DNA from: Candidatus Poriferihabitaceae bacterium
GTDB taxonomy: Bacteria; Pseudomonadota; Gammaproteobacteria; Arenicellales; Poriferihabitantaceae
Direction of reading: 5' to 3'
Length of the DNA stretch: 64,000 bases
Assembly (NCBI GenBank): GCA_965243285.1
Contig: OZ251537.1
Coordinates: forward strand, 570,387 to 634,386
Shown: piece after piece, positions 4,315 through 53,451 of the stretch
Layout of the letters: each line of letters starts with the position of its first letter
How positions within the stretch are numbered: the first letter of the stretch is position 1
Notes under the pieces: generated by a model
The model's input: only the letters and a program-made list of their open reading frames with translations
The model's database searches: none
Told to the model about the DNA's origin: nothing
Position numbers and translations under genes: made by a program

Positions 4315-4371
4315 AGCAAGCGCGCTCCGCCAACGCCGTCCAGCGGGGAAATCGTTTATTCCTCGTCTATA

Positions 4372-27844: not shown

Positions 27845-28168
<324 letters not shown>

Positions 28169-28306
28169 TTTCGCCTTTGAGTCTTCACTCCCCCCCTGCT
28201 TTTTTCGAGGGGGAGTGAAACGTTAAAAGCCAAAGCCAAAGCCAACATCACCCCCACCGAGTAGCAACCTCTGCTGGGGATTTAGGTATAGGCCTGCCAA
28301 ATTAAA

Positions 28307-38331: not shown

Positions 38332-39249
38332 GTGTCAAACCAAACCCAGCATGTCGATGGCCACGCCATCAAAACGGACGCTGCCGCTTATCGACAACAA
38401 CTCGCTATCGGTAATGCGCCCACATGCGAGAGCAAAACATCGCATATTAATTGTTTGACGGCTAAGCAATGGCTTAAAAGTCAACTAGGTGTATGGCAAT
38501 TCACCTATGAAAAAAGGGACATAAGAAAAAAAGACTTGCACCCCGCCACCTTCCCTATCGGCATGGCCAAAAAAATCATAGCGTTATTTACTCATCAAGG
38601 CGAGTTGGTTTTAGATCCATTCGTGGGTAGCGGTACCACTTTGGTGGCGGCGCAAGATTTGAATCGAAACGCACTCGGTTTTGATTTACAAGAAACCTAT
38701 ATCGATTTGTGCGAGCAACGCCTTGCCAGTGAAAACTTATTTAATAAATCAATGCAAATCGCCATTCAAGATGATGCGATTGGCATCCCCGCTTATTTAA
38801 GTGAAGGCGCGGCGAGTTTGATTTGGACTTCGCCACCGTATGCCAACATGCTCAACAGAAAACGCACCAATAAATCCCGCCGCGACAGAAAAAACGAGCA
38901 ATATTTGCAGGTCGAGCAATACTCTCAAGACCCGCGGGATTTAGGCACCATGGAACTGCCCGAATACACTGCAGCGATGGGCGATATTTACGAATCCCTG
39001 CTGCCGTTGCTCAAACCAAAAGGCCATTGCGTGATAAATGTTCCCGATATGTGGTGGGATAATCAACGCATAACTTTGCATGTTTCGTTGATTCAAGAAT
39101 TGCGAAACCGTGGCTATGAATTTCGTAACACCATCATTTGGGACCGCACCAACATCGTTAACAAAGTGGGAATTTTCGGCTGGCCGAGCAATTACATCAC
39201 TCTGGGAACCACCTTCGAATACCTACTGGATTTTTGGAAGCCGGCATAA
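38332..39249 (+). CDS. DNA methyltransferase, PF01555-type with motif I before motif IV (SPPY; possibly N4-cytosine)
   Basis: LDPFVGSGTTLVAA (FxGxG) precedes LIWTSPPYANM. AT-rich island. The gene downstream is a BcnI/MvaI-family endonuclease, whose known partners are m4C MTases. Confidence 0.8.
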   Translation: MSNQTQHVDGHAIKTDAAAYRQQLAIGNAPTCESKTSHINCLTAKQWLKSQLGVWQFTYEKRDIRKKDLHPATFPIGMAKKIIALFTHQGELVLDPFVGSGTTLVAAQDLNRNALGFDLQETYIDLCEQRLASENLFNKSMQIAIQDDAIGIPAYLSEGAASLIWTSPPYANMLNRKRTNKSRRDRKNEQYLQVEQYSQDPRDLGTMELPEYTAAMGDIYESLLPLLKPKGHCVINVPDMWWDNQRITLHVSLIQELRNRGYEFRNTIIWDRTNIVNKVGIFGWPSNYITLGTTFEYLLDFWKPA

Positions 39250-39254
39250 AACGG

Positions 39255-40034
39255 ATGAAAATTTATACCAAAGCGGAACTGATTTCCGACCTGAAGAACA
39301 TCCGCGAACGCGGCTGGATAGCCAGCACCAGGCCAGGCAATGCCGACAGCGTCGGCAACACCCTCGAAGACTTGCTCGGACTAGCAGAAAACAATTTACC
39401 CATCCCTAACGCCGGGGAGTGGGAGTTGAAGGGTCAAAGAAAAAACACTACTTCGTTGCTTACGCTTTTTCACATGGAACCTTCGCTGCGAGCTATACGG
39501 TTTGTCCCACAAGTGTTTTTGCCTAATTATGGTTGGCCGCATAAAGAGGCCGGGCGAAAATATCCTGCTACCGAAATGAGTTTTCGCCAGACCATTCACG
39601 GCACCAGAAGTGAGCGTGGATTCAAGCTTGTTGCGGCTAGAAAAAGTAAAAAAATTCTCGTCTCCTTTGATGCCGAATCCGTGCACGACAAGCATGCGCA
39701 GTGGCTCGATTCAGTCGACCGCAAGGTTGGGGTTGATGAGATAAACCCGCAACCCTAGTGGGGATTTGACGATCTTTTTTATAAAGCGGGCACTAAATTA
39801 TTGCGTTGCTTTTATTTGCAGGCTAAAGTCAAGCAAATTCGCGGCAAAACCCATTTTCGCTATGACGACATAACCATTCTTCAAGATTTTTCTATGGATA
39901 ACTTGGTCGCTGCGTTGGAAAATGGCGAGATGTTGATTGATTTTGATGCGCGAACTGGGCATAACCATGGCACTAAATTTCGTTTGCGACAGAACTCGTT
40001 ACCGGCGTTGTATTTCAGCGTTGATAAGATTTAA
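39255..40034 (+). pseudogene. BcnI/MvaI-family type II restriction endonuclease with an in-frame TAG at 39756-39758
   Basis: MKIYTKAELISDLKNIRERGW...GEWELKGQRKNTTSLLTLFHMEP parallels R.BcnI (MKIWSKEEVVNKLHEIKNKGY...GEFELKGMRNRKAKSNLTLFHKKP). The same frame continues after the TAG (WGFDDLF...GHNHGTKFRLRQNSLPALY versus GPHDRGPHLRIPISKLDKLY). Confidence 0.8.
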
Positions 40035-40202
40035 CGGGCCGGGATTTATTGCTTGGATTGGCATTAATTCGGCGTTGGTGTGGCGAGTTTTTATGGCGGT
40101 GATGGCGGATTCGAAGCCACCGCTAAACTCCACCCGTCAATGCCACTTAAAGTGTCATCCCAAATTCCTCAAATTCACTCACTTCAATATAGGAATATCG
40201 TT

Positions 40203-42713
40203 ATGAAATCCGAGGCTAAAGTGGTTGTTATCGGCGGCGGCGTGGTTGGCGTTAGTACGCTTTATCATCTGGCTAAAAAGGGCTGGAGCGATGTGGCGTT
40301 GGTGGAGCGGCGGGAGTTGACCTCCGGCTCTACCTGGCACGCTGCTGGCTTGTTGCCGCTGTTTAATATGAGTTATTCGGTGGGCAAGTTGCACCAATAT
40401 TCGGTGGATTTTTATCAGGCGTTGGAGCGCGAGACCGGGCTGTCGGTGGGCTTTAGCCAGGTCAGCAATATCCGCCTGGCGTGCACTGAAGAGCGCATGG
40501 ATGAATATCGCTATTACGCCGGGGTGGGCAAAACCGTGGGCGTGGACATCAAATTCCTAAGCCCCGATGAGGTCGGGGAAATCTGGCCGATGTGCAACAC
40601 CGCCGGCTTGCTCGGCGCCATTCAGCACCCTCAAGACGGCTACATTCAGCCCAATGATTTGACCACCGCACTGGCCAAAGGGGCGCGTAATTTAGGCGCG
40701 CAAATTTATCGCCACACCACCGTCACCGCCATCGAACGCCGCGCCGATGGCTGGCTGGTGCGCACCGATAAGGGCGACATAGCGTGCCAGCATGTGGTCT
40801 CGGCCAGCGGCAATTTCGCCCGCCAAACCGGCGCCATGGTGGGGTTGGATGTGCCGGTGATTCCGGTGCAACATCAATACATCGTCACCGAGCCGCACCC
40901 GGAGATTTTGGCGCGTCGCGCCAAAGGTTTGCCCGAGCAGGGCGTATTGCGCGAATCCGACGCTGGCTATTATCTGCGCGAAGAGGCCGGCGGCATGATT
41001 CTCGGCATCTATGAGCGCGGCGCGCCGTGTTGTTATGTGGATGGGCCGGCGGTTGATTGCGAAAATGAACTTTTCCCCGACGAATTAGAGCGCCTCGAGC
41101 CGCATATCAAGGCCTGCATCAAGCGCGTGCCGGCGTTCGGTGAGGTCGGCATGAAGCAAATCTACAACGGCGCGATTGCTTATACCCCGGATGGCAATCC
41201 CATCGTCGGTCCGGCCTGGGGATTGCCGAATTTTTGGCTCAACGAAGGGCATAGTTTTGGCATCACCGCCGCCGGCGGCGCCGGCTGGCAGTTGGCGGAG
41301 TGGATGGTAAGCGGCGAGCCGACGGTGGACATGATGGGCGTGGATCCGCGCCGTTTCGGGCCCTACGCCGGGCGTGGTTACTTGCGCGAAAAAAATGAGG
41401 AAGCCTATCGCAATGTGTTCACCAATCACTTTCCGGACGAAGAACGCGCCGGCGCCACGCCGCTGAAAACCTCGCCGTGCTATGACCGCATGCGCGATTT
41501 GGGCGCGGTGTTCGGGCATTTATACGGCTGGGAGCGGCCGAATTGGTTTGCCCCGCCCGAGTATGAATTGCCGGCGAGTGAAATCGGCAGCGGCGAGGTT
41601 TTGCTCAACACCAACACCTCGCCGCCATTGGCGGATGGGCGCGTGGTCGAGCGCTATTCCTTCCGCCGCTCGAATTATTTCCCCTTTGTCGGCGCCGAAT
41701 GTTTGCATGTGCGCGACCATGTCGGATTGTTGGATATGTCGGCCTTTTCCAAATTTTTGGTGCGTGGCGATGGCGCCGGGCAGTGGTTGGAAGCGCTATT
41801 TTGCAATCGCATCCCCAAAACCATCGGCCGCGTCGGGCTGTGCCATATGCTGGCCAAAAATGGCGGCGTGCGCGCCGAATTCACGGTGTGCAAAGTGGGC
41901 GAAAATCACTATTATCTGGTCTCGGCCGGCGCCATGGAGCGCCATGATTGGGATTGCTTGGGCAAAAATCTGCCGGCCGATGGCAGCGTGCGCATCAGCA
42001 ACATCACCACCCAAAACGGCGTGTTGGTGCTGGCCGGGCCACAATCGCGCGCGTTGCTGCAAAAACTCACCGATACGGATTTGAGCGGCGACAATTTCAA
42101 GTGGCTAACGGCGCAAACCATCAACCTCGGGGCCGCCACGGCGCGCGCCTTGCGGGTCAATTTTGTCGGCGAACTGGGCTTTGAGTTACACCACCCCATC
42201 GAGATGCAGAATTACATTTTCGATCAATTAATGGCCGCCGGGGCGGAATTCGACCTCAAACCGTTCGGCATTCGCGCCATGGATTCCATGCGCTTGGAAA
42301 AATCCTACCGCCTCATCGCGCGCGAGATGTCCATCGAATACGCGGCGCTGGAATCCGGCTTAGAGCGCTTTGTGCGCCTCGATAAAGAGACCGACTTCAT
42401 CGGCAAAACCGCCTTGCTGGCGTGGCAAAAACGCGGCTTCGAAAACGCCTTCGTCACCTTAGCGGTGCACGATGTGACCGATGCCGATGCGCGCGGCTCC
42501 GAAGCGCTGTACCAAAACGGCGCATTGGTCGGGCGCGCCACCTCCGGCGGCTATGGTTTTCGCGTGCAAAAATCCATGGCCTTAGGTTTGGTGAAAACCG
42601 AGTTGGCGAAAATCGGCACCGAACTGGAGATCGAAATCCTCGGCAAAACCTATCCGGCCACGGTTATCGAGGAATCGCCCTACGACTCAGGCAATCGCGC
42701 GCTGCGGGCCTAA
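40203..42713 (+). CDS. dimethylglycine/sarcosine dehydrogenase-like FAD oxidoreductase fused to a GcvT aminomethyltransferase domain
   Basis: KVVVIGGGVVGVSTLYHLAK dinucleotide fold. 836 aa with a C-terminal folate-binding GcvT-like region. Confidence 0.8.
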   Translation: MKSEAKVVVIGGGVVGVSTLYHLAKKGWSDVALVERRELTSGSTWHAAGLLPLFNMSYSVGKLHQYSVDFYQALERETGLSVGFSQVSNIRLACTEERMDEYRYYAGVGKTVGVDIKFLSPDEVGEIWPMCNTAGLLGAIQHPQDGYIQPNDLTTALAKGARNLGAQIYRHTTVTAIERRADGWLVRTDKGDIACQHVVSASGNFARQTGAMVGLDVPVIPVQHQYIVTEPHPEILARRAKGLPEQGVLRESDAGYYLREEAGGMILGIYERGAPCCYVDGPAVDCENELFPDELERLEPHIKACIKRVPAFGEVGMKQIYNGAIAYTPDGNPIVGPAWGLPNFWLNEGHSFGITAAGGAGWQLAEWMVSGEPTVDMMGVDPRRFGPYAGRGYLREKNEEAYRNVFTNHFPDEERAGATPLKTSPCYDRMRDLGAVFGHLYGWERPNWFAPPEYELPASEIGSGEVLLNTNTSPPLADGRVVERYSFRRSNYFPFVGAECLHVRDHVGLLDMSAFSKFLVRGDGAGQWLEALFCNRIPKTIGRVGLCHMLAKNGGVRAEFTVCKVGENHYYLVSAGAMERHDWDCLGKNLPADGSVRISNITTQNGVLVLAGPQSRALLQKLTDTDLSGDNFKWLTAQTINLGAATARALRVNFVGELGFELHHPIEMQNYIFDQLMAAGAEFDLKPFGIRAMDSMRLEKSYRLIAREMSIEYAALESGLERFVRLDKETDFIGKTALLAWQKRGFENAFVTLAVHDVTDADARGSEALYQNGALVGRATSGGYGFRVQKSMALGLVKTELAKIGTELEIEILGKTYPATVIEESPYDSGNRALRA

Positions 42714-42810: not shown

Positions 42811-43434
42811 CTAAACCGCCACCACTTCGGCCCCCAACGCATCGGCGTCGCGTTGCTGATGGGTGGCGGTCAGCACGGTGAGGGCGTGGCTTTTTTGCAG
42901 CGCCAAAATCAGCGCCAGGATGTCAGCGCGTAGGGCTTCGTCCAGCCCATTGAATGGCTCATCCAACAGCAGCAGCGGTCGCTCGCCGCTCATGCAGCGC
43001 GCCATGCAACGCGCCAGCGCCACGCGTTGTTGTTGGCCGCCGGACAGGCTGTACGGCTTGCGGTGCGCGAATTTTGTTAGCGCAACCCATTCCAGCGCCT
43101 CGTCGATGACGGCCTTTTGCGCCGCCGAGAGGCGCAGCCCGGGGTGTAAGCCGATGGCGATGTTGTGGCGCGCGCTGAGGTGCGGGAATAAGTTGTGCGC
43201 CTGCAATAAATAAGTGAGCGGTCGCTCGGCCGGCTTTAAGCTAAGCAAACTGCGCCCACCGAATCTCACCTCGCCGCTGTGTGGCTGCAAAAAACCGGCG
43301 ATGAGGTTGAGCACGGTGGATTTGCCGGCCCCGCTCGACCCCATCAGCGCCGCCGAGCCGCCAGCGGCGAGCGTGAAATGGGCGCGGATTATCGCCTCGG
43401 GATAATCAAACCGCAGGTGGTGGATTTCAAGCAT
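42811..43434 (-). CDS. thiQ: thiamine ABC transporter ATP-binding protein
   Basis: MLEIHHLRF...GSSGAGKSTVLNLIAGFLQP...LSGGQQQRVALARC...LLLDEPF is collinear with E. coli ThiQ. Confidence 0.85.
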   Translation of the reverse strand: MLEIHHLRFDYPEAIIRAHFTLAAGGSAALMGSSGAGKSTVLNLIAGFLQPHSGEVRFGGRSLLSLKPAERPLTYLLQAHNLFPHLSARHNIAIGLHPGLRLSAAQKAVIDEALEWVALTKFAHRKPYSLSGGQQQRVALARCMARCMSGERPLLLLDEPFNGLDEALRADILALILALQKSHALTVLTATHQQRDADALGAEVVAV

Positions 43435-45061
43435 GGCGGTGGCTGGAGCGCGGCTTAATGCCGCTCTCCGAGGGCGATTTTGCCGCCGAATCCCGGCCGC
43501 CGAGTCGCTCGATAAACCAAAACAGGGCAAAGCACAGCAGGCATAGCGCCACTGCCGTCACCGCCGCTTGTTCGAGCCGATAACCGCCGAGCAAGCGGTG
43601 CGTAAGCAGCGGCAAGGTGGTGAGATTGTCGGTGCCAAATAGCGCGATCACGCCCATGTCGCCGGCCGATAAAGTGGTGGCGATGGCCAGCGCGTAGGTG
43701 ATGGGCTGGCGCAGCGCCGGCCACAGAATGCGCCGCCATCGATTCCAGCCGCTGATGCCGAGGGCGGCGCATAGATCATCGTAGCGGGCGCGTTGGGCGC
43801 GCAACGCCGGCACCACGATGCGGATGCCGAACGCCAAGGCGAGCAGCGCGTTTAGCAAGATAACCAGCAGCGGGCCGAGGGATAAGGCATCGCCATGCTC
43901 GACTGTGTTGCGAAAAAACACGAACAAACCGGTGCCGAGGGTGATCGGCGGCGCCATTAAAGTGAGCGCGCCGATAATTTCCACGCCGCCGGCCGCTCGC
44001 CGCCAGCCGCTGCGCTGCACGGTGACGATGGCATCGGCGACGGCTACCGCCGCAACGCAAGACAGCGCCCCGGCGCACAGCGCGATGAACAGCGTCTGGC
44101 GCGTCGCCCGCCAGAAATCAGCCGCCATGAGAATCGACCAGCCGCTCGGCGCCAGCGCCTTGCCTAACGCCGCCGCCAGCGGCGACAGCAGAAAAATCGC
44201 CGCCACTGTGATGACGGCGGCGTCGATGAATTTCGGTCGGCGGGCGGTGGAATCCGGGCGCTCGAGGCCGGCAAAATCACCGGCGCGCAAGGGAAAAACC
44301 CCGCCGCCGGCGAAAAACGCCACGCCTAAGGAGGCGCAAATGGCGAGTTGAATCAACGCCAGCGCCGCGGCTTTATTTAAGTCGAAATCGAAGCGCACCG
44401 CTTGGTAGATGGCCACTTCCAAGGTGGTGGATTTCGGCCCGCCGCCCAAAGTCAGCACGATAGCGAAGGAGGTGAAGCACAGCAAAAAAATCATGCCGCA
44501 CACGGCGGGCATCAAACCACGCAGCAGCGGCCATTCGATGCGCCAAAAAATATGTCGCGGCGCTAAGCCGTACAGCGCCGCCAGATTCCAACTGTGCTGC
44601 GGCAGCGTGAGCAATCCGTTGAGAAAAATGCGCGTCGCCAGCGGCAGATTAAAAAACACATGGGCGAGCAAAATACCGCCGAGCCCGTATAGATAATCGA
44701 GGCGCCCGGCCCCGAGCCCCTCTAACGCCTGATTGACCCAGCCGCGCCGCCCATGCACCGCCACCATGCCTAATACCACCACCATGCTGGGGATGATTAG
44801 CGAAATGCTGCTGATGCGGATGAGCAACCGCCGCCCAAAAAATCGCCCGCGCCGCGCCAACGCACGCGCCAACGGCACCGCCAGCACCACGCTCAATAGC
44901 GTAGACAGCCCGGCCTGCCACAAAGTGAAGCCGATAATCGCCCGCGTACGCGGGTTTTTCAGCGCGGCTAATACATCGACCTGCCCCGCCTCGGCCAGCA
45001 GCCCGGCAAAGGCGCCCACCATAATCAGCGCTACCGCCGCGACCACGATTAATCCGAGCAT
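43427..45061 (-). CDS. thiP: thiamine ABC transporter permease (two-domain)
   Basis: 544 aa, 12-TM duplicated permease. Overlaps thiQ by 8 nt as in thiBPQ operons. Confidence 0.8.
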   Translation of the reverse strand: MLGLIVVAAVALIMVGAFAGLLAEAGQVDVLAALKNPRTRAIIGFTLWQAGLSTLLSVVLAVPLARALARRGRFFGRRLLIRISSISLIIPSMVVVLGMVAVHGRRGWVNQALEGLGAGRLDYLYGLGGILLAHVFFNLPLATRIFLNGLLTLPQHSWNLAALYGLAPRHIFWRIEWPLLRGLMPAVCGMIFLLCFTSFAIVLTLGGGPKSTTLEVAIYQAVRFDFDLNKAAALALIQLAICASLGVAFFAGGGVFPLRAGDFAGLERPDSTARRPKFIDAAVITVAAIFLLSPLAAALGKALAPSGWSILMAADFWRATRQTLFIALCAGALSCVAAVAVADAIVTVQRSGWRRAAGGVEIIGALTLMAPPITLGTGLFVFFRNTVEHGDALSLGPLLVILLNALLALAFGIRIVVPALRAQRARYDDLCAALGISGWNRWRRILWPALRQPITYALAIATTLSAGDMGVIALFGTDNLTTLPLLTHRLLGGYRLEQAAVTAVALCLLCFALFWFIERLGGRDSAAKSPSESGIKPRSSHRHA

Positions 45062-45525
45062 GGGGGTGATGGATAGGAAGGTGGGGGTTGCCGGGTGGCT
45101 TTGATTTGCTTTTGCTGTTGCTTTTGCTTTTGCTTTTGCTTTTGGGCTTTTTCTTACTCCCCGCTGGGCGGGGAGTCAAATCAGGCGGCTCTATCGCCTG
45201 ATTTGGTGGGGAGGGGTGGCTCTTGATGTTGCTTTTGATGTGGCTTTTGATGTGGCTTTTGATGTGGCTTTTGATGTGGCTCTTGATGTTGCTTTTGATG
45301 TGGCTCTTGATGTTGCTTTTGATGTGGCTTTTGATGTGGCTTTTGATGTGGCTTTTGATGTGGCTTTTGATGTGGCTTTGGCTTTTTGCCTTTAGTCTTC
45401 ACTCCCCCCGCTTCATCATGAGGGGGAGTCAAAACTGGCGTCTTTTTGCCAGTTTTGGTGGGGGGGTTTGAGCTGGCTTTGAGCTTTTGATTTTGGCTTT
45501 TGATGTTGCCGCCCCCCATCATGCG
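45062..45525. repeat. cluster of MITE-type modules, including a 12-bp tandem array (TGATGTGGCTTT)~13 at 45225-45375
   Basis: GCTTTT arms and two hairpin modules (45175-45215 CAAATCAGGCG type; 45420-45460 CAAAACTGGCG type). Abuts the thiP start codon. Confidence 0.8.
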
Positions 45526-45533
45526 TCAAGCCC

Positions 45534-45562
45534 AAAAAAAGCGGCGACTGGATGGTCACCGC
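45534..45562 (-). terminator. rho-independent terminator after the Type ISP gene
   Basis: Minus strand: GCGGTGAC-CATCCA-GTCGCCGC followed by T7. Confidence 0.6.
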
Positions 45563-45586
45563 TTGATGTTGTGAAGGTGGGGTGGT

Positions 45587-48500
45587 TTATTTTTCGATGG
45601 CGGCCGGGCGATTGGTGATGGTAGGTTCAGCGGCGAGGAGTTTTCGCCACTCAGCAGTTTTGGCGGGGTCCACGCCCAAACATTTGGCGGCGGCATGGTC
45701 TAATATTTTGCGCGCCGGGTCAGTGTGACATTGGGATATGCGTTCGAGGGGAGTGTCTTTGGTTTTCTCGAAGGCTTTGAGAAGGGGGGATAAATCTAGT
45801 GCCGGGTCGGGCAAGCGTATGGTTTTTAGATGCTCATATTCATATGCAGGCAAATCCAATCGGCCTGAACGACGATTTAACATTTGGATAATGCCAAATG
45901 TTGAGTTCATAAAGACCGCATAGGCTTTGGCTGTGTTTTTATCTTTGGCTTTAATCGGGCGAAATACAGTTCCTATTGCCGGGGTTTCACTATAAACAGC
46001 CATTAATCGGCTAGTGGTTGTTCTTAATAAGCACCCAATAAGAAAATGCGATGCTTTTTTTTGTGTTCTTTTAGCTTGCCTTTCTGATCCAGTCTTGGGC
46101 GTAACTTTGGTTTCTGGTTGACTATTGATGGTTAGCATAACGTTCGTTTTAATGGTGCAAAACGCATTGCCGTTTTCGCTTGGTTTTTTGTTAAAAAATT
46201 CATGTGTATCAGCGGTGCGAAATTGCATCTCAAAAGAATCGCCAGCGCTCGAACAATTCGGCAAAGTATTCATGTCCTCGGCGATATGGGCAAGGGCGGG
46301 ATTAAACCATTGTACCGGTGACCAATTGCCGTCTTTCACTCTTTCGGCTGGCCATAAGGTTCGAGTAAATGATTCGCTTGGCTTGCCGGACTGGATGGCG
46401 GCGATTAATTCAAATGCAGATAAGACCTCGGTGGGGTATTTTGCTAACTGAATAAATCGTGTTGGTTTAGGAGTACCAAGTCCGCGACGGCCAATAATCA
46501 TAGATGTGAAAATGCTATCAGCCCCGTTTGCAAAGTTTTTATGATATTTGTCATGCGAAGTGAGCACTATATCAATATGGAAATGTTTAGCCAGGTATTG
46601 GCGTTGCCCACGGGCATTTTCAGCAGTGCAAACCGTGGTAGGAACGATCATGCCAAATACGCCTTTAGTTTTATTAATCAGCCGGTGGACTACTGGAATG
46701 AAATACGGTTGAATACTTCCTTCGGCGAGTGCATGTGCAGAATCTGCTTCGTTATCAATCAAATGCTGACGAAGTTGTGTCAAGCGTTCACGCATGCTTT
46801 TTACGGTGGCATCATTAAAATGAGTATTTTGCTCCGTGGTTTTTGTAAACGGCGGATTGAAAATCATCGCATCTAAATTTTGCGGCGGGCGGAATTCTTT
46901 GCGGCGGCGCTCGGCGTCGGCGCCATAAATCACCTCGTCATCCAAATCGGCGATGCATACTTGCACGGATTCTTCCCCGGCCTTGCCCAATAATATTTCC
47001 AATGCGCCATGGCGTACATCCTCTGGTTTGTCGCCGGCGGTATTGCGCAATGGCCCGTGTTGCAGGGTATACAGATTCATGCCGCGATAATCGGTGTTGG
47101 GGGCGCCGATGGTTAAATTGCAAGCCGCCAATTGAATCGCCTGTAGGTTGATGTCGAAGCCGTGAATAACATTCTCCACCAAATGTTTGTGCAGGTGTTC
47201 TTGCTGGGCATCGGAGAGACCTTGCGCTGCGGCCGCTTTATCTTTGATGGCTTTCAGTGCCGCCATCAGCAAGGTGCCGGTGCCGCAGGCCGGGTCGGCG
47301 ATTTTTAATTTCTGCACTGCTTTTTTATCCGACCAATCTACGAAGGAATCGTCAAACGCCAAGCCCGCCAACAAATAGGCTGACCGGTTTTTGGTGTAAT
47401 AGGCACCAGAACTTTTGGCGGAACCCAAGATTAGGTGATACAGGTGGCCAGCGTGGTCGAAGCCCAGATCATTCAGGCGCTCGGCCTTGGTCATGGCGCA
47501 CATCGCCAACAATTTAATGGCGGTACGACATTTCTTGAGACCGATAAATTTTTGCATCAAGGCGGTGGCATCTTGAAAAATTGGGCGGTAATCCTTTTCC
47601 AAAATGGTAAGCCATGCGGCATAAAAGGCGGTCGCAGTCTCCGCGTCGCGCTTCGCATCTTCTAAGTTGGTGAGGCCATATAAATTGCCGGTGGAATCTA
47701 AACGCTTATGCATGATGCAGGCGTTGACGATGAGCAGGGCGGCGGTGGTGCAACTCTCGGTGGCATTATCCAGCGGCGTGCCGATGGTCTCGGCGATGCG
47801 GTGGGCTACGCCGGCTTCTTTGAACATGGTAGCGGCTTTTTCCACCTCAGAAGCAATTTCATCGGCCACAGTTTCACCGGGGTTGTCCTTGATGCCGACA
47901 TTTTTTGCCATCTGTGCGGATAGGGCGTTTTTGGCTTGCTCGGTCAGCATGGGGATGTTATCCGGCGTAACCGGGCCCGATGTGGGCGGTGCTTTTTTAG
48001 TGCCATCGGGCTCATCCAGCACTTCACCCATCACCACATGTAACTTGGTGTCAAAACTGCCATCATGCGAACGCATGGCATTGAGTATCACGCCCAAGGA
48101 TTCAAAACGAGAGTTATTTTTCTGCAAAGTGGTCAACAAGTTCTCGCCCGGCGCCATGATCACCGGGGCGATGACATAGCCGAATTTTTTATGCGGGTTT
48201 TTGCGGTCGATGCGCATGGCACGGCCGACTGCTTGCACAGTATCCACCTTGCTTTGGCGTGGGTCCAAAAAGGCGATGGCGTTTAGCGCCGGCACATCGA
48301 TGCCTTCGGTGAATAGTCTGGCATTGCTGATGAGGCGTGGCTGCACATCATCGGCGTCTCGCAACCAATCCAAACCGGTGCGGCGCTGGGCGGCGTTATA
48401 GGTGCCGTCTAAATGCTTGGCATCGATGTCCAGCACCGAACGGTCATCGCTTTTTTGCGCCACCCATTTTTTAATGCCGGGGCTATTCACCGCTTTGGTC

Positions 48501-50023
48501 AGCCATTTAGAGCGGCGGATATTATTAGCAAACACGATGGTGCGGGCGATGGAATCCGGATGATCATCGCCTTTTATAAAGCCATTGATAGCCATGGCGA
48601 TAGCGCCTAAGGCGAGCACCGATTGCGCATCGGCTTCTTCACCGACGCCATCTTTATCGTCATTTAATTCGAGCAATTGATCGATTAATTCGGCGCTGAT
48701 AATTGACTCGGTCAAGCCTAAGGCGATGACACGGTAATCGCACAAAATGTCCGCTTCCACGGCTTGTTTGAAAGTGATATTGGCGAAGGTTTCGCCGTAA
48801 AAAATCTCGTCGTTCATCTCCACCAGTTGCTGATTTTCATCGGCGGCGATGTTTTTCTTAACCTTGCTTTCGCCATAAATTCGCGGCGTGGCCGTCATGT
48901 ACAGACGGTAGTCGGCACGCAGTTGGGCGGCGTCATGGATGGTTTTGAATCCCTCATAGGTGAAGTCACTTTCGTCGTCTTTTTTCTTCAATAGGCCGGC
49001 GGTGCGATGGGCTTCATCGACGATGGCTAAATCAAATTTCGGCGCTTGATGCTTATGTTGGGCCTCGATTAATTTCGGCAGGGATTGATAGGTGCAGAAA
49101 GTTACCTGGGCCTCATCGGCTCGGATGGGGCTGTTTAGGTAGGCGGCGATTTTTTTCGGCTCGGTAGTCACGCGGCCGGCGATTTCATTGGGCTGGATTT
49201 CTTCATTGTCGCCGGCGGTTTCGTCCGAGCAGATGACCAAGGTGCGCAAGCGACGAAGGCTTTGTTCCCGCCATTCGCGGCGGGCTTGGGCCACCAAAGC
49301 GATGGACGGTGCGATGAATAAGATATTGGCGGCGGTGTTTTCATCGGCCGGCGGAATCTGCTCGGCGATGCGCAAGGCGGTGAAGGTTTTGCCGGTGCCG
49401 CAAGCCATGATTAAGGTACCGCGACGGTCGCCATGTTTGCCGGGTTCGGCATTTTTCAAACCGTTTGCTACGGTATTTATGGCCGGCTTTTGTAATTTTA
49501 GGGGTTCATGGATTTTTCGAGGTTCGATGGTGAGTACGGTGTCGCTGTAATTGCGCATGTCGATGACTTTCACATCGTCAAAACCGGCATCTGTGGTGAC
49601 TGCATTGATAGAGAATCCGAGGGCGCCGAATACCAGCCATTTTTCTGCTATATCGGCCTGTTTGGCGGCGCCGATGAAGGTGGAAATGTCCTTCCATGTG
49701 ATATTTCGGGTAGTCCAAAATTTGCATTGAATGGCGATTTGGTAGCCATCCTCATGGGTGGCGATTAAATCCACGCCGATGTCGGTGCTACGGGGGCTTT
49801 TTACGCTGGTGATTCCCAGGTCACTAATCAACGGCAATGCCCATTGGGTTAATTGCTCAAACTTCTTGCCTTTCTCCACATTGGCATCAGAAATTTGGGC
49901 GAATTCATCCAACTTTTCACCAACGGTTTTACCGTCAAAATCATGCAATTGCAGGTGTTTTTCATACTCGGCGGCGGTGAATCCAGGGAGAAATTCCGAC
50001 TGCTTATGGGTTTTATTTGACAT
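45587..50023 (-). CDS. Type ISP-like single-polypeptide restriction-modification enzyme (Mrr-like nuclease + SF2 helicase + N6-adenine MTase + TRD)
   Basis: N-terminal PD-(D/E)xK-like DIGVDLIA...IAIQCKF. Helicase motifs MACGTGKTFT, VDEAHR, TATPR and QAVGRAMR. MTase motifs DPACGTGTLL and IFNPPFTK. 1478 aa, comparable with LlaGI/LlaBIII architecture. AT-richer than the flanks. Confidence 0.8.
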   Translation of the reverse strand: MSNKTHKQSEFLPGFTAAEYEKHLQLHDFDGKTVGEKLDEFAQISDANVEKGKKFEQLTQWALPLISDLGITSVKSPRSTDIGVDLIATHEDGYQIAIQCKFWTTRNITWKDISTFIGAAKQADIAEKWLVFGALGFSINAVTTDAGFDDVKVIDMRNYSDTVLTIEPRKIHEPLKLQKPAINTVANGLKNAEPGKHGDRRGTLIMACGTGKTFTALRIAEQIPPADENTAANILFIAPSIALVAQARREWREQSLRRLRTLVICSDETAGDNEEIQPNEIAGRVTTEPKKIAAYLNSPIRADEAQVTFCTYQSLPKLIEAQHKHQAPKFDLAIVDEAHRTAGLLKKKDDESDFTYEGFKTIHDAAQLRADYRLYMTATPRIYGESKVKKNIAADENQQLVEMNDEIFYGETFANITFKQAVEADILCDYRVIALGLTESIISAELIDQLLELNDDKDGVGEEADAQSVLALGAIAMAINGFIKGDDHPDSIARTIVFANNIRRSKWLTKAVNSPGIKKWVAQKSDDRSVLDIDAKHLDGTYNAAQRRTGLDWLRDADDVQPRLISNARLFTEGIDVPALNAIAFLDPRQSKVDTVQAVGRAMRIDRKNPHKKFGYVIAPVIMAPGENLLTTLQKNNSRFESLGVILNAMRSHDGSFDTKLHVVMGEVLDEPDGTKKAPPTSGPVTPDNIPMLTEQAKNALSAQMAKNVGIKDNPGETVADEIASEVEKAATMFKEAGVAHRIAETIGTPLDNATESCTTAALLIVNACIMHKRLDSTGNLYGLTNLEDAKRDAETATAFYAAWLTILEKDYRPIFQDATALMQKFIGLKKCRTAIKLLAMCAMTKAERLNDLGFDHAGHLYHLILGSAKSSGAYYTKNRSAYLLAGLAFDDSFVDWSDKKAVQKLKIADPACGTGTLLMAALKAIKDKAAAAQGLSDAQQEHLHKHLVENVIHGFDINLQAIQLAACNLTIGAPNTDYRGMNLYTLQHGPLRNTAGDKPEDVRHGALEILLGKAGEESVQVCIADLDDEVIYGADAERRRKEFRPPQNLDAMIFNPPFTKTTEQNTHFNDATVKSMRERLTQLRQHLIDNEADSAHALAEGSIQPYFIPVVHRLINKTKGVFGMIVPTTVCTAENARGQRQYLAKHFHIDIVLTSHDKYHKNFANGADSIFTSMIIGRRGLGTPKPTRFIQLAKYPTEVLSAFELIAAIQSGKPSESFTRTLWPAERVKDGNWSPVQWFNPALAHIAEDMNTLPNCSSAGDSFEMQFRTADTHEFFNKKPSENGNAFCTIKTNVMLTINSQPETKVTPKTGSERQAKRTQKKASHFLIGCLLRTTTSRLMAVYSETPAIGTVFRPIKAKDKNTAKAYAVFMNSTFGIIQMLNRRSGRLDLPAYEYEHLKTIRLPDPALDLSPLLKAFEKTKDTPLERISQCHTDPARKILDHAAAKCLGVDPAKTAEWRKLLAAEPTITNRPAAIEK

Positions 50024-50025
50024 GG

Positions 50026-50085
50026 GTGGATTTTAGTGGGGTGGATTTTAGTGGGGTGAATTTTAGTGGGGTGAATTTGACTGCG
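50026..50085. repeat. tandem 17-bp units (GGGTGRATTTTAGTGGG) upstream of the Type ISP gene
   Basis: GGGTGGATTTTAGTGGGGTGGATTTTAGTGGGGTGAATTTTAGTGGGGTGAATTTGACTG. Confidence 0.8.
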
Positions 50086-50202
50086 GGGGCGGGAATATAA
50101 AACCCACCCGCTTGTTCGTGTGCATCAGGTGGCAAAAAAGGGTGGCAAAAAAATCAACATCAACAAAAAATAAAACATCACCCAAAATAAAGTGAGAACA
50201 TC

Positions 50203-51228
50203 TCATTCACTCAAGGCGCGGCTGAATTCATCTACCCAAGCGGTTTTGTTGGCGGCGATGCGTTGCGGGTCGAGGTGCAAGGTGATGGCCGGCTGGACTA
50301 GCCTGGCGAAGGCTGGCGGCAGGCCGGCGGTCGGGGTGACCGCCGGGTACATCCAATTACCGGTGGGGATGGCGGATTGGAAGGCGTCGGTGGTGATGAA
50401 ATCCATAAAGCGCTGCGCCAGCGCTGGCTGCCGGGCGGCGGCGAGTTGCGCCGCTACTTCGATTTGCAGGCCGTGGCCATCGCCAAAGGCGGCGGCGGCG
50501 TAGCGGTCATCACCCTCGACCATGCGGTGGTAGGCCGGCGAGGTGGTGTAACTCAACACCATATCGGCTTCGCGGTCCAAAAATAAGCCGTACGCCTCGG
50601 CCCAACTGCGGGTGACGGTGATGATTTTGCCGGACAGCCGCCGCCAGGCATCGCCGGCGGCGGCGCCGTACAGCGCCTTGACCCACAGCAGCAGGCCGAT
50701 GCCGGGAGTCGAGCTGCGCGGGTCTTGGATGACGATTTTCAGCGAATCGTCGGCCGCTAATAATTCGTCAAAACTGGTCGGCGGCATCGGCAGATCATCG
50801 CGCCGATAAATGAAGGCGAAATAGCCGTAGTCGAACGGCAAAAACATCGGGTCGCGCCAGAGCACCGGCAAATCGAGGGCCTCCAGCGAGACATTGTGAG
50901 GTTTTAGCAAGCCGGTGGCGCGCGCTTCGACCAGCAGGCTGTGGTCTAAGCCGAGCACCACATCGGCGCGCGAGCCGGCGCCTTCCAACTGCACTCGGCT
51001 GAGAATGCCGGTGGAACTGTCCACCGCCACATAGTTTATTTCGCACGCGCATTGCGCCTCGAACGCGGCTTTGATTTTCGGCCCCGGGCCCCATTTGGAG
51101 GCGAAGGAATCATAGGTGTAGATGTTCAAAACCGGCCCCTCGGCGCGCCCGGCGCCGGCCCAGCAACAGCCGGCCAACAACACGCCGGCGCAACACACCG
51201 CACAAAAAAAACATCGTCGATTGCGCAT
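50203..51228 (-). CDS. thiB: thiamine ABC transporter periplasmic binding protein
   Basis: PVLNIYTYDSFASKWGPGPKIKAAFEAQC.C...FLPFDYGYFAFIY...QDPRSSTPGIGLLLW...LSYTTSPAYH...IPTGNWMYP is near-collinear with E. coli TbpA. Confidence 0.9.
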   Translation of the reverse strand: MRNRRCFFCAVCCAGVLLAGCCWAGAGRAEGPVLNIYTYDSFASKWGPGPKIKAAFEAQCACEINYVAVDSSTGILSRVQLEGAGSRADVVLGLDHSLLVEARATGLLKPHNVSLEALDLPVLWRDPMFLPFDYGYFAFIYRRDDLPMPPTSFDELLAADDSLKIVIQDPRSSTPGIGLLLWVKALYGAAAGDAWRRLSGKIITVTRSWAEAYGLFLDREADMVLSYTTSPAYHRMVEGDDRYAAAAFGDGHGLQIEVAAQLAAARQPALAQRFMDFITTDAFQSAIPTGNWMYPAVTPTAGLPPAFARLVQPAITLHLDPQRIAANKTAWVDEFSRALSE

Positions 51229-51813
51229 GATTCGGAGGGAGAGATGGGGCAGTTGTGGCCGAATGCAGAGCCGCTATTGCCCTCGGTTGCCGCCTGCCGC
51301 TGGGCTTTAATCGGTCCAGTCCGCTTGCCGGGCGGCCTCCAATTCCACCGCGCCGGTCGACCACTTCCAGCGCGGTTTGACCATGCTCGCAGTCCAACCA
51401 TTCGCCCCGCATCAGGTCAGCGGGCAACGCCAGCGGGGCGTCGCATACCGGGCAATTTCGCAGCGGCGGCTTATTCGAGCGGCGGCTTATTCGGTTGTGT
51501 GCTCATGGCAAGATGAATCCGAAGCCTGAATATCTCGTCTGCGATGGCGGCGGGCATCAAGAATGTATCGCTGGTTGCCGCCGGCAAACCGGCGCCCGCC
51601 AAACGCCCGATTCCACAAATGCGGCGCGCAGGTCAATAACGGGCGATAATTCTACCTTGATTTTCCGCCGTGCCAGACGATGTTGTTGGCGTGGTTGCCC
51701 AAGCGGCGTCCCCCTATCATCCGCCAAGGCCGGGGTTTCGCTTAAAATCAGCGCCCTTGGCGCCATTTCCGCACCGCCTTAAACCGCCCGCAGGCATTTC
51801 CAGCCCCACCGCT

Positions 51814-53451
51814 ATGACCATGCCCATCAGCGTCGCCGAACTCGCCCGCAGTCTCAGTCGTTGCGGCATCCATGGGGCGGTGGAAATACTCCACAACCCC
51901 AGCTATGACACCTTGCGCGATGAAGAAACCCGCGCCGATTTGACTGGCTTCGAGCGCGGCCGCATAACCGCCAGCGGCGCCGTGGCGGTGGATACCGGGG
52001 TGTTCACCGGGCGCTCGCCCAAGGATAAATACATCGTGCGCGACGACCTTACCCGCGATACTTTGTGGTGGGCTGAACAAGGGCAAAACGACAACAAGCC
52101 GCTCAGCGCCGGCCATTGGAATCACTTAAAAAAATTGGCGGCGGCGCAGCTGAGCGGCAAGCGCTTGTTCGTGGTGGATGCCTTTTGCGGCGCCGATGCC
52201 GGCACCCGTTTGGGCGTGCGTTTCATCATGGAGGTGGCGTGGCAGGCGCACTTCGTAACCAACATGTTCATCCGCCCGAGCGCGGCCGAGCTGGCGGATT
52301 TCACGCCGGATTTCACGGTGCTAAACAGCGCCCGCGCCGTCAACCCGCAATGGCGCGATATGGGGCTGAACTCCGAGAACTTCATCGCCTTTAATCTGAC
52401 CGAAAAAATGCAGTTGATCGGCGGCAGTTGGTATGGCGGCGAGATGAAAAAGGGCCTGTTTTCAGTGATGAATTACCGGCTGCCGCAACGCGGCATCGCC
52501 TCCATGCATTGCGCCGCCAATATCGGCGCGGCGGGCGATGTGGCGATCTTTTTCGGCTTGTCCGGCACCGGCAAAACCACCCTTTCCACCGACCCGCGCC
52601 GCCGCCTTATCGGCGATGACGAGCACGGCTGGGACGAGCGCGGCGTGTTCAATTTCGAGGGCGGCTGCTACGCCAAGACCATCCGCCTAGAGGCCGCCGC
52701 CGAGCCCGACATCCACCACGCCATCCGCCGCGATGCCCTGCTCGAGAATGTGGTGCTGGGCGCCGACGGCGAAGTGGATTACGCGGATGGCTCGAAAACC
52801 GAAAACACCCGCGTCTCGTACCCGCTGCATCACATCGACAATATCGTCACGCCCATCTCGCGCGGCGGTCATGCCAAGCGGGTGATTTTCCTCTCGGCCG
52901 ACGCTTTCGGCGTGTTGCCGCCGGTGTCGCGCTTAGATGCGGCGCAGACTCAATACCATTTTTTATCCGGCTTCACCGCCAAACTGGCCGGCACCGAACG
53001 CGGCGTACAGCAGCCGACGCCGACTTTTTCGGCCTGTTTCGGGGCCGCTTTTTTGAGCCTGCACCCGCTCCAATACGGCGCCGTGCTGGCGCAAAAAATG
53101 CAAGCCGCCGGGGCGCGCGCCTATCTGGTCAACACCGGCTGGAACGGCCGCGGGGCGCGCATTCGCCTCCAAGACAGCCGCGCTATCGTCAATGCCATCC
53201 TCGCCGGCGAGTTCGAACGCGCCGCCACTGACACCCTTCCCATATTCCATCTGCAAATCCCTCGCGCCTTGCCGGGCGTGGAATCGGCCCTCTTAGACCC
53301 GCGCAACAGTTACCCCGAGGCGGCGCAATGGCAGATTAAAGCGGAGCATTTGGCGGCTTTGTTCATCGACAATTTCAAACAATACCAAGACCATGAAGCG
53401 GCCCGGCGACTCACCGCCGCCGGACCGGTGTTGCCGCCGCAACGGGCTTAA
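51814..53451 (+). CDS. pckA: phosphoenolpyruvate carboxykinase (ATP)
   Basis: [24 protein letters not shown] and IGDDEHGW motifs. Start at MTMPISV by comparison with known PckA length. Confidence 0.9.

What the first reader, a model, noticed from the sequence alone, without database searches (positions are those of the whole stretch)
45062..50202. 5.1 kb carrying a Type ISP-like R-M enzyme plus a repeat cluster is inserted between thiB and thiP
thiB (50203-51228), thiP (43427-45061) and thiQ (42811-43434) are collinear with E. coli thiBPQ, where thiB and thiP are adjacent. Here they are separated by a 1478-aa Mrr-nuclease/SF2-helicase/gamma-MTase/TRD fusion in the same orientation, with its own terminator (45534-45562), and 460 bp of MITE-type modules that abut the thiP ATG. 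The insert is visibly AT-richer than the thi genes. This is the only apparently intact restriction function in the window. Its terminator should be polar on thiPQ unless the repeat cluster supplies a promoter. I could not find a convincing TPP riboswitch upstream of thiB by eye.
Basis: partly seen in the sequence, partly recalled or inferred. Interest (0 to 1): 0.6.

Follow-up and report, generated by a model that had tools for sequence, protein, structure and literature searches.

The report
Foreign restriction enzyme gene splits thiBPQ
A single horizontally acquired gene for a large one-protein restriction-modification enzyme sits between two genes of a thiamine-import operon that are adjacent in every relative examined, which is a clear but fairly ordinary case of defence-gene acquisition.

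Summary
thiB, a 1478-aa ORF, thiP and thiQ lie on the minus strand at the stated coordinates. thiB and thiP are 5141 bp apart. In 78 related loci the gap is 8-209 bp (median 23), and none of 82 related loci carries the big gene. The ORF has GC3 of 0.56, against 0.71-0.80 for its neighbours.

The ORF is intact. All nuclease, helicase and methyltransferase catalytic motifs are present. Its N-terminal half (Mrr nuclease plus SF2 motor) is clearly homologous to the Type ISP enzymes LlaBIII and LlaGI. Its C-terminal half (helical linker, gamma-methyltransferase, TRD) lacks the two Pfam Type ISP signature domains and resembles BpuSI and PglX by fold. I call it a Type ISP-like variant from a large uncharacterised clade.

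The repeat cluster was probably not imported with the gene. It consists of two copies of a 75-nt double-hairpin module plus tandem arrays, and the module occurs 15 times in this window.

A strong terminator follows the gene. No promoter for thiPQ could be shown.

The TPP riboswitch found upstream of thiB in eight relatives is deleted here, next to a decayed lysW-like gene. A second full-length restriction-like gene lies at 4372-5526.

The parts
50203..51228 (-). thiB, the thiamine ABC transporter substrate-binding protein (341 aa), upstream flank of the insertion
   Evidence: TIGR01276 372 bits, above the cutoff of 317. 60-75% identical to ThiB of sponge-associated gammaproteobacterial MAGs.
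50024..50202 (-). 179-bp AT-rich spacer (GC 0.43) between the thiB stop and the R-M start. It holds a 15-mer repeated 3.7 times (50024-50078) abutting the ATG, plus short 13-mer and 17-mer repeats. No terminator and no double-hairpin module were detected here.
45587..50023 (-). Intact 1478-aa single-chain restriction-modification ORF with Type ISP-like architecture
   Evidence: Full-length homologues of 1440-1500 aa exist, and all catalytic motifs are invariant across the alignment.
49529..49927 (-). Mrr-family nuclease domain (about residues 33-165). E56, D81, D85, Q99 and K101 align with LlaGI E38, D74, D78, Q92 and K94.
   Evidence: Pfam Mrr_cat_2, alignment to LlaBIII, invariant columns, LlaGI mutagenesis (PMC2790908)
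48044..49507 (-). SF2 helicase-like ATPase motor (about residues 173-660) with GTGKT 209-213, DEAH 336-339, TATP 377-380 and QAVGRAMR 597-604
   Evidence: ResIII and Helicase_C. LlaBIII 4xqk E 6.5e-81 for the single sequence and 4e-151 for the profile, covering residues 7-702.
47384..48043 (-). All-alpha linker (about residues 661-880) in the position of the Type ISP coupler, with no detectable similarity to it
   Evidence: AF2 models. No Pfam ISP_coupler hit. hhalign gives no alignment here. Foldseek best E is 1.0, and 5ffj scores E 2.7.
46484..47383 (-). Gamma-class N6-adenine methyltransferase domain (about residues 881-1180), with motif I DPACGTG 910-916 and motif IV NPPF 1056-1059
   Evidence: N6_Mtase and Eco57I, invariant columns, fold matches to BpuSI, PglX and CamA
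45590..46483 (-). C-terminal target-recognition region (about residues 1181-1478). It is the most AT-rich segment (GC3 0.43) and the least conserved against the two paralogues.
   Evidence: No Type_ISP_C hit.
45532..45564 (-). Intrinsic terminator 23 nt after the R-M stop codon: 10-bp stem, 6-nt loop, then seven T
45392..45466 (-). Double-hairpin dispersed-repeat module, copy 1 (hairpin A CCACCAAAACTGGC..GCCAGTTTTG, hairpin B ACTCCCCC..GGGGGGAGT)
   Evidence: nhmmer E 6e-20
45216..45379 (-). Tandem array of a 12-mer (CACATCAAAAGC on the gene strand) repeated 13.7 times. The 113-aa ORF 45181-45522 is most likely only a read-through of this array.
45151..45214 (-). Double-hairpin dispersed-repeat module, copy 2
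   Evidence: nhmmer E 1e-15
45105..45144 (-). Hexamer array (AAAGCA on the gene strand) repeated 6.7 times, ending 43 nt upstream of the thiP ATG
43427..45061 (-). thiP permease (544 aa), downstream flank of the insertion. Its N-terminus aligns with relatives.
42811..43434 (-). thiQ ATP-binding subunit (207 aa), overlapping the thiP stop by 8 nt
51229..51560 (-). Remodelled thiB upstream region. It holds a decayed lysW-type zinc-ribbon gene (16-nt tandem duplication at 51457-51493, a further frameshift, and one Cys ligand changed to Gly). Only about 75 nt remain where relatives carry a TPP riboswitch.

Best explanation
A single foreign gene encoding a complete one-polypeptide restriction-modification enzyme was acquired horizontally. 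It now sits in the thiB-thiP intergenic spacer of a sponge-symbiont-like gammaproteobacterium, in the same orientation as the operon. No mobility genes or junction repeats are detectable.

The enzyme is an intact Type ISP-like protein. Its N-terminal Mrr nuclease and SF2 translocase are homologous to those of LlaGI and LlaBIII. They are joined through an unrelated helical linker to a gamma-class adenine methyltransferase and a TRD of the BpuSI/PglX structural type.

By inference from the characterised Type ISP enzymes, it should:
- recognise an asymmetric site and methylate one adenine on one strand;
- on unmodified DNA, hydrolyse ATP and translocate away from the site;
- cut when two enzymes converge.

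The 460-bp repeat cluster between the gene and thiP is built from the host genome's own high-copy intergenic repeats, so it was probably not imported with the gene.

The strong terminator after the R-M gene probably reduces read-through into thiPQ. How thiPQ is now transcribed is unknown.
For: Shown:
- The thiB-thiP gap is 5141 bp here, against 8-209 bp (median 23) in 78 loci. No R-M hit occurs in any of 80 loci.
- The two closest ThiB relatives in a 5.8-billion-protein database (74% identity) have thiB, thiP and thiQ contiguous. The flanking synteny of pckA and lysW-like on one side and the gcvT-like gene on the other is conserved.
- GC3 is 0.558, against 0.71-0.80 for 11 housekeeping genes. 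This low value is shared with the other defence genes in the window.
- The ORF is full length relative to its homologues, and the Mrr, Walker A, DEAH, motif VI, motif I and NPPF residues are invariant.
- LlaBIII matches at E 6.5e-81 (single sequence) and 4e-151 (profile).
- The nuclease residues are the ones whose mutation kills LlaGI cleavage.
- The C-terminal model (pLDDT 85) best matches BpuSI, PglX, CamA and M.BseCI.
- The repeat modules occur 15 times in the window, all in intergenic regions.
- The terminator is supported.
- Homologues in other metagenome contigs are likewise embedded co-directionally among metabolic genes, without mobility genes.

Inferred: the enzymatic mechanism, from PMC3553950, PMC4666363 and PMC3874165.
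Against: - No relative closer than about 75% ThiB identity was available, so the empty site is known only at family level and the exact insert boundaries cannot be drawn.
- No scars of integration were found: no direct repeats, inverted repeats, att site, integrase or transposase.
- The coupler and TRD that define canonical Type ISP enzymes are not detectable. Transfer of the LlaGI mechanism, especially motor-to-MTase coupling, is therefore an extrapolation.
- Activity, recognition site and expression are untested.
Confidence: 0.78

Rival explanations
1. The gene between thiB and thiP is ancestral to this lineage and was lost from all sampled relatives.
For: No species- or genus-level relative was available for comparison. 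The closest ThiB is 75% identical.
Against: 82 loci spanning the nearest family through to Enterobacteriaceae all lack it. GC3 is about 0.2 below that of the flanking genes. Homologues sit in unrelated contexts elsewhere.
Confidence: 0.03
2. The repeat cluster and the R-M gene form one mobile unit, for example a MITE- or REP-bounded cassette, that transposed into the operon.
For: Repeat modules directly follow the gene. Another low-GC defence island in the window ends exactly inside hairpin B of a module at 5698-5758.
Against: Modules lie on one side only, and nhmmer finds none in 50024-50202. There are no flanking direct or inverted repeats. The same modules occupy many intergenic regions unrelated to foreign DNA. 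The homologue in L082 has no such repeats.
Confidence: 0.07
3. The ORF is intact but is no longer a working restriction enzyme. It could be methyltransferase-only, or a silenced remnant that is tolerated because thiBPQ is itself decaying.
For: The locus shows decay nearby: the lysW-like gene is a pseudogene and the TPP riboswitch is deleted. A Type II REase elsewhere in the window is frameshifted. No recognisable promoter or Shine-Dalgarno sequence precedes the ATG.
Against: There are no frameshifts or stops across 4.4 kb. Every catalytic residue checked is conserved. thiB, thiP and thiQ are full length.
Confidence: 0.1
4. The junctions are an assembly artefact, a chimeric join in a metagenome-assembled genome.
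For: The source appears to be a metagenome-derived 2.79-Mb contig. Repeat arrays flank the gene.
Against: Both flanks continue the same operon in the correct order and orientation. The identical protein is recorded in both NCBI and ENA on that contig. Two joins that restore thiB...thiPQ collinearity would be an unlikely coincidence.
Confidence: 0.02

Closest known systems
[quoted passage not shown]
   Same: It is a single polypeptide with the same domain order: Mrr-type nuclease with D..D..QxK, then SF2 motor, then helical linker, then gamma N6-adenine MTase, then C-terminal TRD. The N-terminal 700 residues are clearly homologous (profile E 4e-151). The essential LlaGI nuclease residues are conserved. 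Overall length is similar (1478 aa against 1570-1578 aa).
   Different: The linker, MTase and TRD are not detectably related beyond generic MTase motifs. There is no Pfam ISP_coupler or Type_ISP_C hit, whereas a canonical protein hits both. hhalign aligns only the MTase core, at 31% probability. Plasmid-borne proteins that PGAP names Type ISP align only to residues 33-750. The gene is chromosomal and sits inside an operon rather than on a plasmid.
Type IIG/IIL enzymes and BREX PglX (BpuSI 3s1s, PglX/BrxX 8c45 and 9ewz, DrdV 7lo5)
   Same: The MTase plus TRD half of the model finds these as its best structural matches (Foldseek E 2.5e-15 to 1e-9). Weak sequence hits go to the Eco57I, MmeI_Mtase and PglX models.
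   Different: Those proteins have no SF2 translocase fused to an Mrr nuclease. Type IIG enzymes cut at a fixed distance without ATP, and PglX needs the other BREX proteins.
R-M genes as mobile units inserted into operon-like clusters (Furuta, Abe and Kobayashi 2010, PMC2853133)
   Same: An R-M system lies between otherwise adjacent co-directional genes, at a translation stop/start boundary that leaves both neighbours intact, with no mobility gene.
   Different: The best-documented class there has a long target duplication. None is present here.
REP/BIME-type extragenic palindromic repeats
   Same: The 75-nt modules are imperfect palindromes. They are strictly intergenic, high in copy number, clustered, found in both orientations and fall into subfamilies.
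   Different: They are always combined with A/C-rich hexamer to 12-mer tandem arrays. The sequence family was not found in 80 related loci or in JGI metagenomes. Association with a RAYT transposase was not tested.

Membership tests
Type ISP R-M enzyme | One polypeptide with the order Mrr-like nuclease, DNA translocase, gamma-MTase, C-terminal TRD (Loenen et al. 2013, PMC3874165) | tested here: met
   Pfam domain order and AF2 secondary structure of residues 690-1478
Type ISP R-M enzyme | Mrr-type nuclease motif (PD-QxK) with the residues essential in LlaGI (D74, D78, K94; E38 and Q92 contribute) | tested here: met
   D81, D85, K101, E56 and Q99 align and are invariant in 23 homologues. Mutagenesis data from PMC2790908.
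Type ISP R-M enzyme | SF2 helicase-like ATPase homologous to that of LlaGI/LlaBIII, with intact motifs I, II, III and VI | tested here: met
   4xqk E 6.5e-81 and 4e-151 for the profile. GTGKT, DEAH, TATP and QxxGRxxR are invariant.
Type ISP R-M enzyme | ISP coupler domain (Pfam PF22240) between motor and MTase | tested here: not met
   No hit at E<=0.01, whereas a canonical Type ISP protein scores 4e-49. None appears in the precomputed lists of 120 homologues. hhalign gives no alignment. Foldseek with the linker model gives no match better than E 1. An all-alpha segment of similar size does occupy the position.
Type ISP R-M enzyme | Type ISP C-terminal specificity domain (Pfam PF18135) | tested here: not met
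   No hit, whereas the canonical protein scores 1.6e-45. No hhalign alignment beyond the MTase core. The TRD fold resembles BpuSI and PglX instead.
Type ISP R-M enzyme | Gamma-class N6-adenine MTase with motif I before motif IV (NPPY/F) and the TRD C-terminal | tested here: met
   DPACGTG 910-916 and NPPF 1056-1059 are invariant. N6_Mtase and Eco57I hits.
Type ISP R-M enzyme | Asymmetric recognition site, methylation of one strand only | not testable with these tools
   Needs methylome data or biochemistry
Type ISP R-M enzyme | ATP-driven translocation, with cleavage on convergence of two enzymes from head-to-head sites | not testable with these tools
   Known for LlaGI and LlaBIII (PMC3553950, PMC4666363) and only inferred here
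thiBPQ thiamine ABC importer operon | ThiB, ThiP and ThiQ equivalogs | tested here: met
   ThiB 372 bits, above the cutoff of 317. ThiP 394.2 against a cutoff of 395.1. ThiQ 206 against a cutoff of 245, but it is the best hit, and the synteny and gene lengths match relatives.
thiBPQ thiamine ABC importer operon | thiB and thiP adjacent | tested here: not met
   5141 bp here, against 8-209 bp in 78 loci
thiBPQ thiamine ABC importer operon | TPP riboswitch (RF00059) in the thiB leader | tested here: not met
   Absent from the window. Present at 54-69 bits in L001, L002, L004, L005, L007, L008, L083 and L084. Also absent in L003.
MITE | Terminal inverted repeats and a target-site duplication bounding a short non-autonomous element | tested here: not met
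   No such repeats bound the cluster or the 5.1-kb insert. The units are 75-nt double hairpins followed by tandem arrays.
REP/BIME-like extragenic repeats | Short imperfect palindromes, strictly extragenic, many copies, clustered in either orientation | tested here: met
   15 copies at E<=1e-12 in 64 kb, all between long ORFs and on both strands. The hairpins are stable (z -7.7).
REP/BIME-like extragenic repeats | Associated RAYT (REP-associated tyrosine transposase) in the genome | not tested
   Only 64 kb of the genome is available
R-M insertion with long target duplication (Furuta 2010) | Direct repeats derived from the target flanking the R-M gene | tested here: not met
   Best flank-to-flank matches are 8-14 nt, at chance level

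The most novel reading that the evidence does not exclude
In this symbiont lineage, defence genes may be acquired routinely by insertion into housekeeping operons, at or beside arrays of the lineage-specific double-hairpin repeats and without conventional mobile-element genes. The host operon may then be rewired around the guest.

Under this reading, the R-M gene here is read from the thiB promoter. Loss of the TPP riboswitch would keep the enzyme expressed whatever the thiamine status. The repeat array after the terminator would restart thiPQ transcription.

Hints in favour:
- no terminator lies between thiB and the R-M gene;
- the riboswitch is deleted;
- a module is truncated exactly at the edge of another defence island;
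- R-M homologues are embedded in metabolic operons in L081 and L082.

Against this reading, L003 also lacks the riboswitch and has no insert.
Probability: 0.12. Interest if true: 0.55.

Novelty: new variant of a known kind. Interest (0 to 1): 0.3.

Why it matters
The finding is modest. It is a cleanly documented example of a complete defence system, carried in a single gene, lodged inside a vitamin-uptake operon of a sponge-symbiont-like bacterium. R-M systems are already known to be enriched in that niche (PMC5649159, PMC5099237; titles and abstracts only).

Two points could repay follow-up:
1. The enzyme belongs to a very large, unnamed and uncharacterised clade: more than 7900 database proteins at E<=1e-10 among 8000 candidates scored. 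The clade couples the Type ISP nuclease-motor to a different linker, MTase and TRD. It therefore tests whether the translocation-collision mechanism depends on the canonical coupler. Three paralogues appear to share one genome, which would allow specificity to be mapped from one methylome.
2. The locus is a natural experiment on how an operon copes with a terminator-bearing insertion and with loss of its riboswitch.

Tried and rejected
- I looked up the source contig for the exact protein and its paralogues. None is on record, so the genome-wide context and the other two copies could not be read.
- I searched for closer relatives of ThiB among 5.8 billion proteins. Nothing exceeds 75% identity, so no species-level empty site is available.
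- I scanned JGI metagenomes for the repeat module with two patterns. One gave no hit and the other gave one chance hit.
- I looked for target duplications or inverted repeats at the insert ends. None rose above chance.
- I looked for a degenerate module in the thiB-side spacer, where TTGACTGCGGGGGCGGG looked suggestive by eye. nhmmer does not support it.
- The promoter scan on the gene strand of 45062-45586 and 50024-50202 found nothing. The TTGACT inside each module has no convincing -10 partner by eye.
- Foldseek with the isolated linker model found no significant match.
- L009 and L020 lack thiP after thiB. In L009, thiB is followed by opposite-strand ORFs with no R-M hit, and that genome has a second ThiB. 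L020 was not examined further.
Full report
**1. What is in the sequence**

On the minus strand lie thiB at 50203-51228, a 1478-aa ORF at 45587-50023, thiP at 43427-45061 and thiQ at 42811-43434 (ATG start).
- NCBIfam places ThiB above the equivalog cutoff (TIGR01276, 372 bits against 317).
- ThiP scores 394.2 against a cutoff of 395.1, and ThiQ scores 206 against 245. ThiP and ThiQ models are nevertheless their best matches.
- pckA lies divergently upstream at 51670-53451.
- A gcvT/sarcosine-oxidase-like gene lies convergently downstream at 40080-42713.

GC falls from about 0.62-0.66 in the thi genes to 0.42-0.55 across 45000-50250. The big ORF has GC3 of 0.558, against 0.71-0.80 for eleven housekeeping genes in the window.

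**2. Is it an insertion?**

A ThiB-based scan of one genome per GTDB species returned 80 loci. The nearest are 'Candidatus Poriferihabitaceae' and other sponge-associated gammaproteobacterial MAGs, at 55-72% identity.
- tblastn with the window's proteins shows thiP directly after thiB in 78 of the 80 loci. No locus has a hit to the big ORF.
- The projected gap from thiB stop to thiP start is 8-209 nt (median 23), against 5141 nt here.
- L009 and L020 are the two exceptions. In L009, thiB is followed by opposite-strand ORFs with no R-M hit, and that genome has a second ThiB. L020 was not examined further.
- A search of 5.8 billion proteins found no ThiB closer than 75% identity.
- Two of the closest ThiB hits (74% identity) have thiB, thiP and thiQ contiguous. 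One also has pckA upstream, and both have the gcvT-like gene nearby downstream.

The flanking synteny is therefore conserved, and the gene is an addition in this lineage. Its ends carry no target duplication, inverted repeat, integrase or transposase.

R-M systems inserted into operon-like clusters at stop/start boundaries have been described before (PMC2853133).

**3. What the gene encodes**

Pfam gives Mrr_cat_2 (78-144), ResIII/DEAD (173-381), Helicase_C (493-605) and N6_Mtase/Eco57I (866-1153).

Against PDB sequences, the protein matches LlaBIII (4xqk, E 6.5e-81) and LlaGI (5ffj, E 3e-78). The match covers only residues 77-661. A 23-sequence profile extends it to positions 7-702 at E 4e-151, and no further.

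In that alignment, D81, D85, Q99 and K101 correspond to LlaGI D74, D78, Q92 and K94. E56 is assigned to LlaGI E38 by motif position (an invariant F-E pair), because it lies upstream of the aligned stretch. In LlaGI, D74A, D78A and K94A abolish cleavage, while E38A and Q92A reduce it (PMC2790908).

The following are invariant across 23 homologues:
- the nuclease residues above;
- GTGKT (209-213), DEAH (336-339), TATP (377-380) and QxxGRxxR (597-604);
- MTase motif I DPxCGTG (910-916) and motif IV NPPF (1056-1059).

The ORF is full length relative to homologues of 1440-1500 aa.

**4. How 'Type ISP' is it?**

The domain order fits the published definition (PMC3874165). The C-terminal half does not behave like a canonical Type ISP protein.
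- A plasmid protein that PGAP names 'type ISP restriction/modification enzyme' (Komagataeibacter, L086) hits Pfam ISP_coupler (4e-49) and Type_ISP_C (1.6e-45).
- The window protein hits neither. Neither domain appears in the precomputed lists of its 120 best homologues.
- All 520 plasmid matches cover only about residues 33-750, at 32-35% identity.
- PADLOC's fused REase-MTase models also match only residues 33-662.
- Profile-profile comparison of C-terminal halves aligns only the MTase catalytic core, at 31% probability.
- An AF2 model of residues 690-1478 (pLDDT 84.9) shows an all-alpha segment, a Rossmann-type MTase and a beta-rich TRD.
- The best Foldseek matches for that model are BpuSI, PglX/BrxX, CamA, M.BseCI and DrdV. 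4xqk and 5ffj are not in the top 50.
- The isolated linker model has no significant PDB match. 5ffj scores E 2.7.
- The Type ISP literature itself relates the LlaGI MTase-TRD to BpuSI (PMC4872093). The general class is therefore the same.

I conclude that this is a Type ISP-like variant. It combines a homologous nuclease-motor with a non-canonical linker, MTase and TRD module.

The clade is large: 7920 proteins at E<=1e-10 among the 8000 candidates scored. Source names are only generic.

**5. Paralogues and context elsewhere**

Two further family members are recorded on a contig of the same length, 2,793,270 bp, as the exact protein. They are P0002 (1555 aa) and P0122 (1515 aa). Each is 64-66% identical to this protein, and they are 90% identical to each other.

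The TRD segment is the least conserved against these paralogues and the most AT-rich, with GC3 of 0.43 against 0.62 in the motor. This would be consistent with exchange of the specificity module, which is an inference.

In two other metagenome contigs, homologues are also embedded co-directionally among housekeeping genes.
- L082 has one inside a fatty-acid/CoA metabolic cluster that also contains a separate Type II R-M pair.
- L081 has one just upstream of cox genes.

**6. The repeat cluster**

The 525-bp spacer between the R-M stop and the thiP ATG folds into five strong hairpins (z = -7.7). They are the terminator and two copies of a double-hairpin module. A 12-mer array repeated 13.7 times and a hexamer array repeated 6.7 times lie between and after the modules.

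An HMM of the module finds 15 copies at E<=1e-12 in the 64-kb window. All are intergenic, they lie on both strands, and they fall into at least four loop subfamilies. Copies with a full 3' flank run into A/C-rich tandem arrays.
- None lies in the thiB-side spacer.
- None occurs in the 80 related loci.
- Two JGI metagenome scans found no true copy.
- Two copies occur in L081, which carries a close relative (at least 90% identity) of paralogue P0122.

The cluster is therefore the host lineage's own REP-like repeat. It is unlikely to have been imported with the gene, and it does not meet MITE criteria.

**7. Consequences for the operon**

The terminator at 45539-45564 has a 10-bp stem and seven T, and it is the only canonical one in the spacer. 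The module hairpins are followed by A-rich sequence on the gene strand.

The consensus scan finds no promoter-like site on the gene strand in either spacer, and no terminator between thiB and the R-M gene. Co-transcription of the R-M gene with thiB is therefore plausible. Polarity on thiPQ is plausible but unproven.

**8. The thiB leader**

Eight relatives carry a TPP riboswitch (54-69 bits) just upstream of thiB. The window has none at any threshold.

The closest relatives also have a 60-aa lysW-type zinc-ribbon gene between pckA and the riboswitch. In the window this gene is decayed in three ways:
- a 16-nt tandem duplication (51457-51493) shifts the frame into a stop;
- a second indel shifts the frame after 'LEVV';
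- one zinc-ligand Cys has become Gly.

Only about 75 nt separate the remnant from the thiB ATG, which is too short for the aptamer.

L003 also lacks the riboswitch and has no insert. The two events are therefore not necessarily linked.

**9. Verdict**

Three corrections apply:
- the repeats are native to the host genome;
- the C-terminal half is not canonical Type ISP;
- the gene is not the only intact restriction-like gene in the window (4372-5526).

The mechanism is inferred from LlaGI and LlaBIII: asymmetric-site binding, one-strand methylation, ATP-driven translocation and cleavage on collision. It has not been shown for this protein.

This is a defence-gene acquisition of a familiar kind that involves an uncharacterised variant of a known enzyme class. 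Interest is low to moderate.

Noticed in passing
window 51229-51560 (-): A lysW-type zinc-ribbon gene is intact (60 aa, PF21344) upstream of thiB in the closest relatives. Here it is a pseudogene, with a 16-nt tandem duplication, a further frameshift and one Cys changed to Gly. The TPP riboswitch that follows it in relatives is deleted.
   Followed up: yes
window 5698-5758, 12173-12962, 24384-24460, 25541-25864, 34736-34939, 45151-45466, 62577-62895: A lineage-specific 75-nt double-hairpin module, combined with A/C-rich hexamer to 12-mer tandem arrays, occurs 15 times in 64 kb. All copies are intergenic and they form at least four loop subfamilies. It is absent from 80 related loci and from JGI metagenomes, and two copies occur in L081. 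If the density is uniform, the 2.8-Mb genome would hold several hundred copies.
   Followed up: partly
window 5698-5758: One module copy is cut off exactly inside hairpin B, where a low-GC defence island begins (model positions 4-66 of 80). This hints that the hairpins may be breakpoints for foreign DNA.
   Followed up: partly
window 2538-5526: A low-GC island carries a PADLOC HEC-01A/HEC-01B pair (2538-3680 and 3715-4314, plus strand). It also carries a full-length GmrSD_N plus HNH protein that matches PADLOC REase_II PDLC03418 at 1e-132 (4372-5526, minus strand). No adjacent methyltransferase was seen.
   Followed up: partly
window 38332-40034 (+): A Type II N6/N4 methyltransferase (38332-39249, GC3 0.51) is followed by a Type II REase that matches PADLOC PDLC03524. 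The REase is split into two ORFs (39234-39758 and 39801-40034), so it is probably frameshifted and inactive.
   Followed up: partly
proteins P0002 and P0122 (outside the window): Two more Type ISP-like paralogues (1555 and 1515 aa) are recorded on a contig of the same length as the source of this window. They are 90% identical to each other and 64-66% identical to the window protein. Their loci could not be fetched.
   Followed up: partly
window 45590-46483 (-): The TRD-coding segment has GC3 of 0.43, against 0.62-0.63 in the motor and linker. It is also the least conserved segment against the paralogues. This compositional mosaic would be consistent with exchange of the specificity module.
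   Followed up: partly
L082 10001-17316; L081 780-4856: Homologues of the enzyme in other metagenome contigs are also wedged co-directionally into housekeeping clusters. L082 has a second, Type II R-M pair two genes further on in the same metabolic cluster. The L081 copy appears N-terminally disrupted.
   Followed up: partly
window 45181-45522 (-): This 113-aa ORF most likely only translates the 12-mer tandem array. It has no Pfam hit and is probably not a gene.
   Followed up: yes
window 28075-28663: The RNase P RNA gene (RF00010, 330 bits, 28307-28663, minus strand) is directly flanked by a TTGCTG array repeated 15.8 times and by a hairpin-B-only repeat copy.
   Followed up: no
L003 (JAHRAW010000070.1): This relative also has no TPP riboswitch hit upstream of thiB, although its thiBPQ is uninterrupted. 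Riboswitch loss is therefore not confined to the genome with the insertion.
   Followed up: partly
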